Positions 48,886 through 53,736 of a stretch of 64,000 nt of DNA are shown here, piece by piece (the first letter of the stretch is position 1; each line of letters begins with the position of its first letter). Location of the stretch: assembly GCF_009931435.1 (NCBI RefSeq), contig NZ_CP043414.1. One strand, written 5' to 3'. Below the pieces are notes generated by a model. It was not told the DNA's origin and searched no databases. It saw nothing but the letters and a program-made list of their open reading frames with translations. The stretch comes from Escherichia coli. GTDB lineage: Bacteria; Pseudomonadota; Gammaproteobacteria; Enterobacterales; Enterobacteriaceae. The position numbers and the translations under genes are program-made.

Positions 48886-49914
48886 ATGAGCCTGGAAAGC
48901 GAAGAAAAAGACCAAACAGAAAAAAAGCTGATCACCATGCGTGACGTGGCGAATGCTGCCGGGGTGAGTATTTCTACCGTTTCGCGTATCCTGGATGAAA
49001 GATTACCGCCATCTAAAAGCGCTTCTGCCGAAAAAGTACGCCAGGTCGCACGCGAATTGGGCTATCGTCGGGATTATGTTGCCTCCAGTCTCCGTCGCGG
49101 CGGCACCGGGACACTTGGTGTATTAGTTCCACGCCTGACTGATGCAGTTACTGCAATGTTGTTTGAAGAAATCGCTAAAGCAGCGTCGCATCGTGGTTAC
49201 TTCGCAGTGGTCGCGACTTGTGGAGACGATCCCCAGCAAGAGCGAGAATCTGTAGAATCACTTCTCGACAGGCGGGTCGACGGCTTGATTATGTCAACCT
49301 GTCGCCTCGGCGATCCCCTACCGCAAACTTTGCGTGAAAGGGATATTCCCCATGTGCTCGCCCTGCGTACTGATGGTGTTAGCCCATCATCCATCGGCGA
49401 TGATGAACTGGGTGGTTACCTTGCTACTCGCCATCTTATTGATTTAGGACATAAAAACATCGGTTTGATAGGTGGCCCGGATTTTGCCTCAAATGCGCTT
49501 AATCGCCGTAAAGGTTTTGAAAAGGCAATGCGCGAAGCCGGACTAACTATACAGCCGCAATGGTGCTGTTCATCAGACTTTAACATCCAGTCGGGAGAAG
49601 AAGCAGGGATGAAACTCCTCAGAACGACTCCTGCTCCAACCGCTATTTTTGCGGTAAATGACGAAATAGCGATTGGTGTGGTTGCTGCCGCTCACCATTT
49701 GGGGATAACAATCGGCCAAGAGTTGTCGTTAGTGGGTTATAACGACATTCCTCTGGTCAGCCGACTTCCTGTGGCGCTCACTTCCGTAAGAACGCCGCTA
49801 GAGCATATCGCCAGTAATGCTGTGGACATGTTGATTAATGCCGACAGTGGCCGCTCTTTGCGTACAACCATACCGACTTTAATACCAAGAAAATCAACGA
49901 GTTCACCCAAGTAA
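48886..49914 (+). CDS. LacI-family transcriptional regulator (accessory locus gene 3), 342 aa
   Basis: ORF track; N-terminal HTH ITMRDVANAAGVSISTVSRIL; periplasmic-binding-protein-like effector domain; GGGAG ribosome-binding site 6 nt upstream. Confidence 0.85.
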   Translation: MSLESEEKDQTEKKLITMRDVANAAGVSISTVSRILDERLPPSKSASAEKVRQVARELGYRRDYVASSLRRGGTGTLGVLVPRLTDAVTAMLFEEIAKAASHRGYFAVVATCGDDPQQERESVESLLDRRVDGLIMSTCRLGDPLPQTLRERDIPHVLALRTDGVSPSSIGDDELGGYLATRHLIDLGHKNIGLIGGPDFASNALNRRKGFEKAMREAGLTIQPQWCCSSDFNIQSGEEAGMKLLRTTPAPTAIFAVNDEIAIGVVAAAHHLGITIGQELSLVGYNDIPLVSRLPVALTSVRTPLEHIASNAVDMLINADSGRSLRTTIPTLIPRKSTSSPK

Positions 49915-49923
49915 AGCCTGTCT

Positions 49924-49962
49924 TTCATTTGCTGCAAAACCCGGGGTTTTGCAGCAAATGAA
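49924..49962. terminator. Near-perfect 19-bp palindrome 10 bp downstream of the LacI-family gene stop (terminator-like hairpin, no clear T-tract)
   Basis: TTCATTTGCTGCAAAACCC-g-GGGTTTTGCAGCAAATGAA. Confidence 0.45.
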
Positions 49963-50067
49963 GAACATTAAAATTCTTATATTCCTTCCCTGATTTTGTG
50001 ATCCCTGCTGCATTTTTCAACAACTGTTGATTGACAACCTCATTCATCAGGTTCAAATTCAATCTTG

Positions 50068-50093
50068 TGAAAACGATTGCAAGAACGTTTTCA
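50068..50093. promoter_or_regulatory. Second copy of candidate operator TGAAAACG-N10-CGTTTTCA, 58 bp upstream of the DapA-family gene
   Basis: Exact 8-bp inverted repeats with a 10-bp spacer, identical in arms and spacing to 48567-48592. Confidence 0.5.
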
Positions 50094-50150
50094 TTTCGTT
50101 TCTTGCATTGTCCACATAATAAAAAAGACTAAATTATTAAGGAGATAGTC

Positions 50151-51080
50151 ATGATCAATATAGATCTCAGAGGTTTGACCCCGGCACCGGTTACCCCTTT
50201 CAATCGTGATGGTAGTATTGATTTTGATGCTATCCAGCGTCTGGGAAGCTGGCTGGGTAGTATTGACGGCGTTAAAGGGTTAGTTGTACTTGGTCATGCT
50301 GGTGAAGGTACTTTCCTGACACAAGATGAACAGGCCGCTGTGATCCGTGCTTTCGTAAAATCCGTAGATGGCAAGCTGCCTATCATTGCCGGTATCACCG
50401 GTGAAGGGACTGACGTCGCTGCTAAAGAAGCCAAACGTGCCGTGGAAGCTGGTGCTTCAGCAGGCCTGTTATATCCTTCTCATGGATGGTTGCGTTTCGG
50501 CTACCAGGACGGCGCACCACAAGATCGCTACCGCGTTGTCTATGAAGAAAGCGGCCTGCCCTTGATCCTGTTTCAGTATCCTGATGTGACTAAAGCAACC
50601 TATAATCTGCAAACACTGCTGGATATTTCCGCACAACCCGGTGTTTTTGCTATGAAAAATGGTGTACGCAATATGCGTCGTTGGGATACAGAGATCCCGG
50701 TTATCCGCCGCGAGCGTCCGGAATTACAGATCCTCAGTTGCCATGATGAATATCTGGTACACACTGCTTTTGACGTAGATGGTTTCCTTGTCGGCTATGG
50801 CAATATTGCGCCAGAACCGCTCATCGAGATGATCAAAGCAGGTAAAGCTGGCGATTATAAAAAAGCACGCGCGATACATGACCGTCTGCTGCCAGTAACG
50901 AAGTGCGTATATCATCGCGGTTCCCATATGGAAGGAACCGTCGCCCTGAAACACGCGCTGGTTGCTCGCGGTATTCTCGAACATGCTACTGTTCGTTCAC
51001 CGCTATTACCGCTGGAGCATGGTGCCGAAGAAGAAATTCATGCTGCTATGCGTGCAGCTGACCTGCCGCGCGTTAAATAA
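50151..51080 (+). CDS. DapA/NAL-family class I aldolase or dehydratase (dihydrodipicolinate synthase-like) (accessory locus gene 4), 309 aa
   Basis: ORF track; strong AAGGAG ribosome-binding site; family-typical Tyr (LFQYPDVT) and Schiff-base Lys context (FAMKNG). Confidence 0.75.
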   Translation: MINIDLRGLTPAPVTPFNRDGSIDFDAIQRLGSWLGSIDGVKGLVVLGHAGEGTFLTQDEQAAVIRAFVKSVDGKLPIIAGITGEGTDVAAKEAKRAVEAGASAGLLYPSHGWLRFGYQDGAPQDRYRVVYEESGLPLILFQYPDVTKATYNLQTLLDISAQPGVFAMKNGVRNMRRWDTEIPVIRRERPELQILSCHDEYLVHTAFDVDGFLVGYGNIAPEPLIEMIKAGKAGDYKKARAIHDRLLPVTKCVYHRGSHMEGTVALKHALVARGILEHATVRSPLLPLEHGAEEEIHAAMRAADLPRVK

Positions 51081-51351
51081 CTCCGGCAACAGAAAAGAAA
51101 GCAGTATTCTAAATCACTACTCCTGATGGTTATTGCTTTCTTTCACTTAATGCCACATTAACGACGACAGCCACCTTTACATACAATCATAAGGTGGCTC
51201 ATTCTCTTCATCAGCCTATTGTCGCGCCGGGCTATTTTGAATAACTCAGATGTAATAATGATGAGATTGTTAGAATCCAGGCCATAGTACAACGTCTCAG
51301 AAGCCAGAAGGTAAGTAATGCCCTGATCATGGCATGAATTGAAGGAACATC

Positions 51352-52233
51352 ATGAAACTGCTCAGTTTTTCTGTAGATAACGAAGAAAAGTATGGTGCCA
51401 TCGTATCCGATGGAATTATTGACTTGCATAAATTATTTCCCGAACTTCCCGACCTGAAATCATACGTTGCCAGTCAACATTCATTAGACATCGCTTTGTT
51501 TGCAGGTAAAAAAGCCGATTACCATCAGGGCGAAGTGACTTTTCTGCCCGTAATTACTCGACCAAATAAAATCATCTGCGCAGGTATGAACTACCGGGAA
51601 AAATGTGCAGAATTTAATGAAAAAGGTGGCGATCCGACGCTATTTATCCGTTTTGCTGATACTCAGACGGGCCACCGTTGTGGGTTAATAAAACCGACCC
51701 TGAGTAATGAATTTGATTATGAAGGCGAACTGGCGGTAATTATAGGTCGCCAGGGTTCTCACATTCCTGCTGATGAAGCATTTAACTATATTGCCGGGTA
51801 TAGCTGTTATATGGATGGTTCCGTTCGTGACTGGCAGCACAGCTGGTTTACTGCCGGTAAAAATTGGCCTGCAACAGGTGGATTCGGGCCATGGATGGTT
51901 ACGCCAGATGAAATTCCTGACCCTCAAAATCTGAATATTATCACCCGTCTTAACGGCAAGGAAGTGCAGAATGATAATACACATAGCATGCTGCACTCTA
52001 TTAAGGATTTGATTGCCTATATCAGTACTTTCACCACCTTATCGCCCGGTGACGTGATATTAACAGGCTCTCCGGGTGGGGTCGGTAAAAAACGCTCTCC
52101 ACCGCTCTTCTTGTGGCCTGGTGATATTGTTGAAGTTGAGATTTCAAGAATTGGTTGCCTGATAAATCACATTATAAGCGACAACGAAGAGTATCCGGTC
52201 ACTTTACAATCAGAACTCGATAACGCCTGCTGA
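51352..52233 (+). CDS. Fumarylacetoacetate hydrolase (FAH)-family enzyme (hydratase/hydrolase/decarboxylase type) (accessory locus gene 5), 293 aa
   Basis: ORF track; FAH-fold motifs DYEGELAVIIG and ITRLNGKEVQ...GDVILTGSPGG. Confidence 0.75.
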   Translation: MKLLSFSVDNEEKYGAIVSDGIIDLHKLFPELPDLKSYVASQHSLDIALFAGKKADYHQGEVTFLPVITRPNKIICAGMNYREKCAEFNEKGGDPTLFIRFADTQTGHRCGLIKPTLSNEFDYEGELAVIIGRQGSHIPADEAFNYIAGYSCYMDGSVRDWQHSWFTAGKNWPATGGFGPWMVTPDEIPDPQNLNIITRLNGKEVQNDNTHSMLHSIKDLIAYISTFTTLSPGDVILTGSPGGVGKKRSPPLFLWPGDIVEVEISRIGCLINHIISDNEEYPVTLQSELDNAC

Positions 52234-52323
52234 TTATAAAGTTAACGAAAAATTCGGATAGATAGCCTGGCACTTTAGAAATTAACATTAAGTGGTAGGC
52301 AATCCTTTCAAGGAGTATGCGTG

Positions 52324-53610
52324 ATGATCATGCTGCAATTTATTATCGTTTTATTTTTCCTGTTTTTAGGAATGCGTATTGGCGGCATTGGTGTCGGATT
52401 TGCTGGTGGGGCAGGTGTCATCGCCTTGTGCGCCCTTGGTGCAACACCCGGCGATTTACCGATGCTGGTGATCGTTTTTATTATGGTTGTCATCATTGCA
52501 ATTGCTGCAATGCAAGAAGCGGGTGGGATTGACTATCTGGTTGGTTTAACCGAAAAAATGCTTCGCCGCTACCCTCGCCTGCTGGTAATAACTGCACCTC
52601 TGTCTACATGGCTATTAACCATGATGGCCAGTACCGGTCAGGTGTCATTTGCCTGTATGCCGGTTATTGTGGGTGTCGCGAAGGAAAATCAACTTCGTCC
52701 CACCCGGGCGTTGGCGCTTTCGGTTACCGCTTCATTGTTAGGTATTGTTGCCTCGCCTATCTCTGCCGCCGTTATTTTCTTTTCAGGCATCCTGGAAAAA
52801 AATCACCAGGGATGGGGATATTTGCAACTCATTGCCGTTTCTATACCGGCTACTTTATTAGCGTTGATTTGTACTTCGCTTTTTTACCTGTTCTGGGACA
52901 AACTTCGCCAGAATGATCAATTACCCGTACATATGGCTGTAACGAAAAAATCTCTGTCTGCGCCTGTGGTACAGGGAGCTCGTCGCTCAGTACTAATATT
53001 TATTTTTGGCCTAGTTGTAGTACTTTTTTACGCCCTCATTGCCAGTCCGAAAACAGGCGTTATCATACATCCCGTTTTAAATAGTGGACAGGTCCGTATT
53101 TCAGTAATGATGGCTGTAGCACTCGCCATTGTTATGTTTTGCCGGGTAAATGTGAATAACATTCCTGCGACATCAGTTTTTAAAACAGGGATGACGTCAT
53201 GCATCTGTATTTTAGGTGTCGCCTGGCTCGGTTCTACATTCATGGATAGTAACCAGGTGTGGTTTCAAAGCATGATTTCCGGATATTTATTAGATTCACC
53301 ATTGTTGCTGGCAATTATTATTATGCTGGCGTCATGTTTTCTATATTCTCAGGCGGCCTCCACCAAAATACTTTTTCCTATTGCATTAAGTATGGGTATC
53401 GCCCCTGCCACTCTGGTCGCCTGCTTTCCAGCAACGGCTTCTCTTTTTATTTTACCTAACTACCCCACATTATTAGCCGCCGTGACTCTTGATGATACGG
53501 GGTCAACGAAATTAGGAAATCGAATAATCGATCATCCGTTTATTGTTCCTGGTTTAATGGCAACCGTGTTATCGATACTCTTCGCCGCGGGATTCGCATT
53601 GTTTATTTAA
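52324..53610 (+). CDS. DcuA/DcuB-family anaerobic C4-dicarboxylate transporter paralog (accessory locus gene 6), about 428 aa
   Basis: ORF track 52321..53610 (GTG); ATG at 52324; blocks resembling DcuA throughout (GGIGVGFAGG, ASPISAAVIF, KTGMTSCICILGVAWLG, LLYSQAASTK, FILPNYPTLLAAVTLDDTGSTKLGNRIIDHPFIVPG). Confidence 0.8.
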   Translation: MIMLQFIIVLFFLFLGMRIGGIGVGFAGGAGVIALCALGATPGDLPMLVIVFIMVVIIAIAAMQEAGGIDYLVGLTEKMLRRYPRLLVITAPLSTWLLTMMASTGQVSFACMPVIVGVAKENQLRPTRALALSVTASLLGIVASPISAAVIFFSGILEKNHQGWGYLQLIAVSIPATLLALICTSLFYLFWDKLRQNDQLPVHMAVTKKSLSAPVVQGARRSVLIFIFGLVVVLFYALIASPKTGVIIHPVLNSGQVRISVMMAVALAIVMFCRVNVNNIPATSVFKTGMTSCICILGVAWLGSTFMDSNQVWFQSMISGYLLDSPLLLAIIIMLASCFLYSQAASTKILFPIALSMGIAPATLVACFPATASLFILPNYPTLLAAVTLDDTGSTKLGNRIIDHPFIVPGLMATVLSILFAAGFALFI

Positions 53611-53691: not shown

Positions 53692-53736
53692 TTAAAAATC
53701 CCCAACCAGCCTGTTGGGGATAAATATGTATTTTTC
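53692..53736. terminator. Bidirectional terminator between the convergent Dcu-like gene and ssb
   Basis: TCCCCAAC-cagcct-GTTGGGGA hairpin flanked by A-run (upstream) and T-run (downstream). Confidence 0.65.

What the first reader, a model, noticed from the sequence alone, without database searches (positions are those of the whole stretch)
49924..49962. Near-perfect 19-bp palindrome immediately after the LacI-family regulator gene
TTCATTTGCTGCAAAACCC-g-GGGTTTTGCAGCAAATGAA lies 10 bp after the regulator stop codon. The stem is much longer and more perfect than typical intrinsic terminators and has no clear trailing T-tract. It could insulate the regulator from the downstream operon, or be a protein-binding palindrome.
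Basis: seen in the sequence. Interest (0 to 1): 0.3.

Follow-up and report, generated by a model that had tools for sequence, protein, structure and literature searches.

The report
Transcript-end hairpin after a regulator gene
The long perfect palindrome just after the LacI-family regulator gene is most likely an ordinary RNA hairpin marking and protecting the end of that gene's transcript, unusual only in being so long and so perfect.

Summary
Arms 49924-49942 and 49944-49962 are a perfect 19+1+19 inverted repeat starting 9 nt after the regulator's TAA. It is the longest palindrome in the window and folds far better than shuffles (z about -6.5).

The window is an E. coli chromosome with a rare 6-gene sugar-acid-type island, present in 12 of 5426 complete genomes. 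The palindrome occurs only at this locus, with no copy in plasmids or viral contigs and no Rfam match.

About 40 orthologous loci were recovered. Nearly all have a hairpin starting 8-18 nt after the regulator stop, but with different sequences.
- The closest lineages share the stem base GCTGCA...TGCAGC and show compensatory changes (92% of cells paired against 23-50% in slid controls).
- G·U pairs favour the + strand RNA.
- One lineage has a canonical terminator with a T8 tail.

The window hairpin has no U tract, and the next 80 nt are C-rich and G-poor (C/G 2.3, top 1%). This fits the known U-less protective stem-loops at Rho-dependent transcript ends. A weak intrinsic terminator is the main rival.

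It is not a LacI-type operator. The real operators and a CRP-like site lie downstream and are conserved in sequence.

Verdict: ordinary, low interest.

The parts
49924..49942 (+). Left arm of the perfect palindrome (TTCATTTGCTGCAAAACCC); 5' half of the RNA stem
49943..49943 (+). Central unpaired G. In the fold the loop is 3 nt (49942-49944), which gives 18 contiguous pairs.
49944..49962 (+). Right arm of the palindrome (GGGTTTTGCAGCAAATGAA); 3' half of the RNA stem
49919..49967 (+). Extended hairpin: three further pairs (TGT/ACA) beyond a 1x1 mismatch, about 22 pairs in all
48886..49914 (+). LacI-family regulator gene (342 aa) whose transcript the hairpin is proposed to end; stop TAA at 49912-49914
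49963..50047 (+). Untranslated C-rich, G-poor stretch after the hairpin (about 24% C, 10-11% G; C/G 2.1-2.4). Candidate Rho-loading (rut-like) region by composition only.
   Evidence: compared with PMC6061677
49997..50012 (+). CRP-like site TGTGA-N6-CTGCA, conserved as TGTGA-N6-nnGCA in all orthologues. Its centre is about 29 bp upstream of the -35 centre, which is class-I-like spacing (inference).
50031..50036 (+). Conserved TTGACA (-35-like) of the downstream operon promoter. The -10 is weak and the scan does not call it.
50068..50093 (+). Tandem LacI-type operator boxes (TGAAAACGATTGCA and CAAGAACGTTTTCA), almost invariant across orthologues
48567..48592 (-). Second copy of the same tandem operator in the divergent MFS-transporter/regulator promoter region
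   Evidence: a second pattern match about 1.5 kb away in several loci
50151..51080 (+). First gene of the downstream operon (dihydrodipicolinate-synthase-family enzyme)

Best explanation
The palindrome is transcribed as the 3' end of the regulator mRNA and acts as RNA on the + strand. It forms an 18-22 bp hairpin 9 nt after the stop codon. It has no U tract and is followed by an untranslated C-rich, G-poor stretch. So the most likely sequence of events is that Rho terminates regulator transcription in the spacer 49963-50050, and 3'-to-5' exonucleases trim the RNA back to the hairpin. The hairpin then gives a defined, protected 3' end. The net effect is that regulator transcription does not read into the CRP/repressor-controlled promoter of the downstream catabolic operon. 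What is shown: the structure, its uniqueness, its structural conservation in orthologues, the + strand bias and the downstream composition. What is inferred: transcription through it, Rho dependence, exonuclease protection and insulation. The extreme length and perfection are specific to the window lineage and are probably not needed for the conserved role, since orthologues manage with 9-17 pairs.
For: 1. Position and stability: -29.6 kcal/mol, z -6.5 to -6.8, 9 nt after the stop.
2. Among 42 orthologous regulator-to-operon spacers (36 distinct), each lineage has a hairpin starting 8-18 nt after the stop, but with different sequence. 8 of 12 lineage representatives have z of -2.8 or lower.
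3. The 82-86% lineages share the stem base GCTGCA...TGCAGC with the window, so the hairpins are homologous. On alignment A2, 92% of cells pair against 23-50% with slid partners. 7 of 13 pairs changed on both sides, and 0 of 500 shuffles reach the covariation score.
4. The + strand RNA folds better than the - strand in 21 of 28 distinct orthologous hairpins (mean 3.6 kcal/mol), with 52 G·U pairs that would be A·C on the other strand.
5. There is no U tract.
6. The 80 nt after the hairpin have C/G of about 2.3, in the top 1% of all 80-nt windows of the 64 kb.
7. Across lineages, U-less hairpins go with C/G 1.6-2.4, while hairpins with a U tail go with C/G 0.8-0.95. Pantoea, which has a second hairpin plus a U-rich tail, is also near 1.0, and L019 has neither a U tail nor high C/G. 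Spearman rho is -0.52 on non-independent sequences.
8. Dar and Sorek 2018 (PMC6061677) describe exactly this class in E. coli. Rho-dependent transcripts end just after stable stem-loops that lack a U-rich tail. Downstream C is enriched over G, and the stem-loops protect against PNPase and RNase II.
9. The downstream operon has its own conserved promoter elements, so a transcript boundary here makes sense.
Against: 1. There is no transcript, 3'-end or Rho-dependence data for this accessory island. The C-over-G composition is only a loose correlate of rut sites, and part of that stretch is the AT-rich promoter region of the next operon.
2. The window palindrome itself is perfect, so it carries no strand information. 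The - strand fold is as stable.
3. Three of 12 lineage representatives (L004, L044, L019) have hairpins that are not individually significant (z -0.8 to -1.6).
4. The orthologous sequences are related, so the shuffle counts and the rank correlation overstate the number of independent events.
5. A C49940A variant that removes the top pairs (-29.6 to -23.8 kcal/mol) occurs in 2 genomes and 1 metagenome contig without compensation. The upper stem is therefore not under tight constraint.
6. After the extended stem the tail TTAAAATTCTTATATT is moderately U-rich, so some intrinsic termination is not excluded.
Confidence: 0.5

Rival explanations
1. It is a weak or partial Rho-independent (intrinsic) terminator. 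The long hairpin forms in the exit channel and releases a fraction of polymerases in the moderately U-rich tail, with no need for Rho.
For: Same position and structural-conservation evidence as above. Other lineages have terminator-like architecture at this position. L022 has CATTTATCTC-cgcca-GAGATAAATG followed by GCTTTTTTTT (T-score 5.2). The 78-80% clade, which includes the second E. coli island version L002, has a 13-17 bp hairpin followed by (G)AATTTTGTAT. After the extended stem the window tail TTAAAATTCTTA holds 6 T in 12.
Against: The U tract next to the stem is missing. GAACATTA follows the perfect stem and TTAAAA follows the extended stem. The consensus scan does not call it and the T-tail score is 2.0. 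The closest orthologous hairpins (L025, L034, L004, L009) also lack any U tail. So the U-less state is conserved in this branch rather than being a recent loss.
Confidence: 0.25
2. It is a double-stranded DNA binding site for a dimeric protein: the adjacent LacI-family regulator or another factor.
For: The DNA has perfect two-fold symmetry. The inner part TGCAAAAC...GTTTTGCA loosely resembles the operator half-sites TGAAAAC/TGCAATC.
Against: 1. The generic LacI-type box TGNAANCGNTTNCA matches perfectly only at 48579-48592 and 50068-50081, not in the palindrome.
2. The palindrome is symmetric about a single base and would place such half-sites 5 bp too far apart.
3. Its sequence is not conserved in orthologous loci, whereas the operators and the CRP-like site are almost invariant.
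4. What is conserved is pairing, including G·U pairs that mean nothing in duplex DNA.
5. There is no other copy in the window, in E. coli genomes, in plasmids or in viral contigs. Arms of 19 perfect bp are far longer than any usual operator.
Confidence: 0.04
3. It is an RNase III processing site. The roughly 22-bp duplex is cut, uncoupling or destabilising the regulator mRNA, as in retroregulation by lambda sib.
For: In the window lineage the stem reaches about 22 pairs with one 1x1 mismatch. By general knowledge that is about the two helical turns RNase III needs.
Against: Orthologous hairpins have only 9-17 pairs, so the conserved role cannot depend on RNase III length. The C49940A variant and the AT-rich, breathing outer stem are tolerated. 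There is no direct evidence of cleavage.
Confidence: 0.05
4. It is a member of a repeated or mobile palindromic element (REP/BIME, MITE, abutted IS ends) or a recombination site.
For: It is a long perfect palindrome inside a horizontally acquired island.
Against: It is single-copy. One locus per genome in the 12 of 5426 complete E. coli genomes that have it (the two 'places' per genome are read as the two strands of the same site). It has no other copy in the window, none in 72,556 plasmids, and the core has no match in viral contigs. It sits at the position of a homologous hairpin in orthologues, so it was not inserted. No transposase or integrase lies next to it.
Confidence: 0.02

Closest known systems
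[quoted passage not shown]
   Same: A stable stem-loop lies just downstream of a gene. It has no U-rich tail and no upstream A tract, and C exceeds G in the downstream sequence (paper text).
   Different: The stem is 18-22 bp. The paper reports stem lengths like those of ordinary terminators, so this one is much longer. Rho dependence and the 3' end are not measured here.
Intrinsic (Rho-independent) terminators
   Same: A hairpin lies a few nt after a stop codon, on the coding strand, before an independently promoted operon. Orthologous loci have true terminator-like versions at the same place.
   Different: There is no U tract adjacent to the stem. The stem is longer, and only 8 of its 22 pairs are G-C.
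LacI/GalR-family operators
   Same: Palindromic DNA next to a LacI-family gene, with a faint half-site resemblance (TGCAAAAC).
   Different: The symmetry and spacing are wrong, there is no match to the family box, and the sequence is not conserved. The real operators are at 50068-50093 and 48567-48592.
REP/BIME extragenic palindromes
   Same: An intergenic palindrome between two co-oriented genes. By general knowledge, REP hairpins also stabilise upstream mRNA.
   Different: It is single-copy and unrelated in sequence to any repeated family in 5426 E. coli genomes.

Membership tests
Intrinsic (Rho-independent) terminator | Stable stem-loop on the transcribed strand downstream of a gene | tested here: met
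   -29.6 kcal/mol, z -6.5, starts 9 nt after the TAA
Intrinsic (Rho-independent) terminator | U-rich tract immediately 3' of the stem (the scan requires at least 5 T in 8) | tested here: not met
   GAACATTA after the perfect stem and TTAAAATT after the extended stem. Not called by the scan. T-tail score 2.0 against 5.2 for orthologue L022.
Intrinsic (Rho-independent) terminator | Factor-independent release of RNA polymerase at the site | not testable with these tools
   Needs in vitro transcription or in vivo 3'-end mapping
Rho-dependent transcript-end protective stem-loop (Dar and Sorek 2018) | Stable stem-loop at the transcript end without a U-rich tail or upstream A tract | tested here: met
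   The upstream flank AGCCTGTCT is not A-rich.
Rho-dependent transcript-end protective stem-loop (Dar and Sorek 2018) | C-over-G enrichment in the sequence just downstream (rut-like) | tested here: met
   C 19, G 8 in 49968-50047 (C/G about 2.3), in the top 1% of 80-nt windows in the 64 kb
Rho-dependent transcript-end protective stem-loop (Dar and Sorek 2018) | Rho-dependent (bicyclomycin-sensitive) termination, with the steady-state 3' end at the base of the stem and exonuclease trimming | not testable with these tools
   No expression data for this island
LacI/GalR-family operator | Even-symmetric box of TGnAAnCGnTTnCA type with a central CG | tested here: not met
   With up to 1 mismatch the pattern hits 48579-48592 and 50068-50081 perfectly and does not hit 49924-49962. 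The palindrome is symmetric about a single G.
LacI/GalR-family operator | Sequence conservation in orthologous regulatory regions | tested here: not met
   The palindrome sequence is replaced by other hairpins in all diverged orthologues, while the operator is nearly invariant
REP/BIME or MITE-type repeated palindromes | Many copies per genome | tested here: not met
   One locus per genome in 12 of 5426 E. coli genomes; none in plasmids or viral contigs
RNase III substrate | About 20 bp or more of near-continuous dsRNA | tested here: inconclusive
   About 22 pairs in the window but only 9-17 in orthologues. Cleavage is not testable.
Any curated RNA family (Rfam 15) | Match to a covariance model | tested here: not met
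   0 matches at E up to 1 in 48400-50300

The most novel reading that the evidence does not exclude
The window-lineage extension from an ancestral stem of about 10 bp to a perfect 19-bp palindrome may not be neutral. It could create a new property, either an RNase III-cleavable duplex or a cruciform or protein-bound DNA element. That property would actively tune how much regulator is made, or how tightly the regulator gene is uncoupled from the operon, in this recently transferred island.
Probability: 0.06. Interest if true: 0.35.

Novelty: new member of a known kind. Interest (0 to 1): 0.12.

Why it matters
It matters little beyond annotation. It marks the 3' boundary of the regulator transcript in a rare E. 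coli accessory island of unknown substrate: a porin, an MFS transporter, a LacI-family regulator, a DapA-family enzyme, an FAH-family enzyme and a Dcu-type transporter.

The set of orthologues is a small, clean natural example of turnover at one transcript end. Some lineages have a U-tailed, terminator-like hairpin and others a U-less hairpin followed by C-rich sequence. If confirmed by 3'-end mapping, it would illustrate interchange between intrinsic and Rho-dependent solutions at a single site. It also shows that a 19-bp perfect stem can arise from a stem of about 10 bp.

Tried and rejected
- **Other copies of the palindrome.** None in the window with up to 3 mismatches. Only the locus itself in 5426 E. 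coli genomes. None in plasmids and no exact core in viral contigs. The repeat-element idea is rejected.
- **Rfam.** An E-value scan of 48400-50300 gave nothing.
- **Promoter and terminator scan.** It does not call the palindrome as a terminator, and finds no + strand promoter in or next to it. The only nearby promoter-like site (- strand, 50020-49993) is a 9-of-12 match, and the total number of sites found was no higher than in shuffles. It was not pursued.
- **Terminator for a - strand transcript.** The tail on that strand (AGACAGGCTTTACTTGG) is not U-rich, and orthologue G·U pairs favour the + strand. Rejected.
- **LacI-type operator.** Rejected by the pattern scan and by the lack of conservation.
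- **Genome-contig scan with the regulator protein.** It gave only two true orthologues, Raoultella terrigena and Pantoea allii. The operator-pattern scan of metagenome contigs was far more productive, with 38 loci.
- **Resemblance to Tn3-family inverted-repeat ends (GGGGTTT...).** The GGGG ends abut instead of facing outward, and there is no second copy or transposase. This came from memory only and was not tested further.

Full report
**1. The observation**

The sequence at 49924-49962 is TTCATTTGCTGCAAAACCC-g-GGGTTTTGCAGCAAATGAA.
- The two 19-nt arms are perfectly complementary around one central G. The 19-mer is found once on each strand and nowhere else in the window, even with 3 mismatches (0.02 expected).
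- The upstream ORF 48886-49914 (342 aa) ends with TAA at 49912-49914, 9 nt before the palindrome.
- The complementarity continues imperfectly to 49919-49967. This is the longest and most perfect short-range inverted repeat in the 64 kb.
- As RNA the + strand folds to -29.6 kcal/mol (z -6.5 over 86 nt, -6.8 over 62 nt). The - strand folds to -32.1 kcal/mol.
- No T tract follows on either strand, and the terminator scan does not call the site.

The repeat is perfect rather than near-perfect.

**2. Context**

The ORF is a LacI-family regulator. Downstream on the same strand lie a dihydrodipicolinate-synthase-family gene (50151-51080), a fumarylacetoacetate-hydrolase-family gene (51352-52233) and a Dcu-type C4-dicarboxylate transporter gene (52321-53610). 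Upstream and divergent lie an MFS transporter gene and a carbohydrate porin gene.

The window is an E. coli chromosome. These six genes form an accessory island between yjcB and ssb, present at 99% identity or more in only 12 of 5426 complete genomes. Three further genomes carry a version about 75% identical inside a different island, next to IS3 remnants.

**3. Is it a repeated element?**

No. In E. coli genomes the 51-nt query matches only this locus. I read the two 'places' per genome as the two strands of the palindrome. There is no match in 72,556 plasmids, no exact core in viral contigs and no Rfam family.

**4. Comparative evidence**

A protein-based scan of reference genomes gave two orthologous loci, Raoultella terrigena (86%) and Pantoea allii (84%). 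The operator-like sequence GTGAAAACGATTGCANNAACGNTTNCA upstream of the operon is conserved, and scanning metagenome contigs with it gave 38 loci, nearly all orthologous. I extracted 42 regulator-to-operon spacers, of which 36 are distinct.

Three things stand out.

(a) The downstream part of the spacer is conserved in sequence. It holds a CRP-like TGTGA-N6-nnGCA, a TTGAC(A/G) -35-like hexamer and the tandem LacI-type boxes.

(b) The part just after the stop codon is not conserved in sequence. Even so, each lineage has a hairpin starting 8-18 nt after the stop. Of 12 lineage representatives, 8 have z of -2.8 or lower and three are individually weak.

(c) The window clade (12 genomes and 3 metagenome contigs) always has the palindrome. 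Two genomes and one contig carry C49940A, which opens the top of the stem (-23.8 against -29.6 kcal/mol) without a compensating change.

**5. Homology and covariation**

The 82-86% lineages share the stem base GCTGCA...TGCAGC with the window, and a plain MAFFT alignment puts the hairpins in the same columns. Counting a 13-pair core on that alignment gives:
- 92% of cells form standard pairs, against 23-50% when the partners are slid by 1-3 columns.
- 7 of 13 pairs have changes on both sides.
- No shuffle out of 500 reaches the observed covariation score.

The 78-80% clade keeps its own hairpin of 13-17 pairs. So pairing is what is maintained, not sequence.

The polarity is informative. Orthologous hairpins contain 52 G·U pairs on the + strand, and the + strand RNA folds better than the - strand in 21 of 28 distinct sequences (mean 3.6 kcal/mol). 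This points to an RNA made in the direction of the regulator gene. It argues against a duplex-DNA site and against a - strand RNA.

**6. Which mechanism?**

One lineage (L022) has a canonical intrinsic terminator at this position: a 10-12 bp stem followed by GCTTTTTTTT. The 78-80% clade has a hairpin followed by AATTTTGTAT. This supports a transcript-end role for the position.

The window hairpin and its closest homologues (L025, L034, L004, L009) have no U tail. In the window, the 80 nt after the hairpin are 24% C and 10% G. That gives C/G of about 2.3, in the top 1% of all 80-nt windows of the 64 kb.

Across lineages the two features go together:
- U-less hairpins have C/G of 1.6-2.4 downstream.
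- U-tailed hairpins have 0.8-0.95.
- Pantoea adds a second hairpin with a U-rich tail and sits near 1.0.
- L019 is an exception, with neither a U tail nor a high C/G.

The sequences are related, so this is a pattern and not a statistical test.

The pattern matches what Dar and Sorek (2018, PMC6061677) mapped in E. coli. Rho-dependent transcripts have precise steady-state 3' ends just after stable stem-loops that lack a U-rich tail. Downstream C is mildly enriched over G, and the stem-loops protect against PNPase and RNase II.

I therefore favour Rho-dependent termination in the spacer with the hairpin as a protective 3' end (confidence about 0.5). Weak intrinsic termination is the main rival (about 0.25). 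Both give the same biological outcome: the regulator transcript ends before the separately controlled operon promoter.

**7. Protein-binding alternative**

The generic LacI-type box TGNAANCGNTTNCA matches perfectly only twice in the 64 kb, at 50068-50081 and 48579-48592. These sit in the two promoter regions of the island, and there is no match in the palindrome. The palindrome is symmetric about a single base, its sequence is not conserved and it has no second copy. I rate this alternative at about 0.04.

**8. Length and perfection**

Orthologues work with 9-17 pairs that include G·U pairs. Only the window lineage has 18 contiguous Watson-Crick pairs, or about 22 with the extension. That is long enough in principle for RNase III (general knowledge), but the conserved role cannot depend on it. 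The uncompensated C49940A variant suggests weak constraint on the upper stem. The simplest reading is a lineage-specific elaboration of an ancestral stem of about 10 bp, possibly by hairpin-templated correction. That last point is inference and was not tested.

**9. Verdict**

This is a real, statistically striking feature, but it belongs to a well-known kind: the transcript-end hairpin of a regulator gene. It is a new member of that kind. It has some value as an example of turnover between U-tailed and U-less ends at one orthologous site. Interest is 0.12.

Noticed in passing
L005 5088-5107; L002 7005-7015 and 7080-7090; L004 5082-5095; also L032, L009 (sequences): Orthologous spacers carry a sequence-conserved inverted repeat CTGCGATC / GATCGCAG holding GATC (Dam) sites. 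The halves are adjacent in Pantoea (TCTGCGATC-tg-GATCGCAGA). L032 has GAGATCccGATCTC and L009 has GGGATCccGATCGC. In the 78-80% clade the halves lie about 65 nt apart around the terminator hairpin. The window clade lacks it, and its stop-to-CRP-like spacer is shorter (80 nt against 86-112). It may be a second RNA helix or a protein or Dam-sensitive site.
   Followed up: no
window 45300-45540 (3' part of yjcB): In the island-carrying genomes this part of yjcB is only about 85% identical to yjcB in the other 5404 or so E. coli genomes. Homology stops exactly at the end of yjcB. The island and a diverged yjcB allele seem to have arrived together by recombination from a related species.
   Followed up: partly
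window 48567-48592 and 50068-50093: The same tandem LacI-type operator (TGAAAACGATTGCA + nAAGAACGTTTTCA type) sits in both promoter regions of the island. The regulator therefore probably controls the transporter/porin genes (and perhaps itself) as well as the catabolic operon (paired matches about 1.5 kb apart in L018, L025, L027, L030, L038).
   Followed up: partly
window 49997-50012 with 50031-50036: A conserved CRP-like half-palindrome TGTGA-N6-nnGCA has its centre about 29 bp upstream of the centre of a TTGACA hexamer, and the -10 is poor. This looks like a class-I CRP-dependent promoter for the operon. It is inference from spacing only.
   Followed up: no
L002 (NZ_CM132251.1 3780861-3795041): Three E. 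coli genomes carry a copy of the same six-gene cluster, about 75% identical, at another chromosomal place. It is flanked by IS3 remnants and GTPase-family, WYL-domain and YfjS/YafY-family lipoprotein genes, so the cluster has been acquired independently at least twice.
   Followed up: partly
window 45595-53610: The island has lower G+C (about 44-49%) than the flanking uvrA side (52-56%). Its gene set (porin, MFS transporter, DapA-family enzyme, FAH-family hydrolase, Dcu-type transporter) suggests catabolism of an unidentified sugar acid or keto-deoxy acid. No family reached an equivalog cut-off, except the Dcu gene, which passed the subfamily cut-off.
   Followed up: no
window 53698-53720 and 45547-45581: Ordinary terminator-like hairpins lie at the island edges. 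CCCCAAC-cagcct-GTTGGGG with an A/T-rich tail follows the Dcu gene. TTTGTGCAGGA...TTCTGCACAAA lies between the convergent yjcB and porin genes. Their stems are 7-11 bp, which shows how unusual the 19-bp stem is.
   Followed up: no
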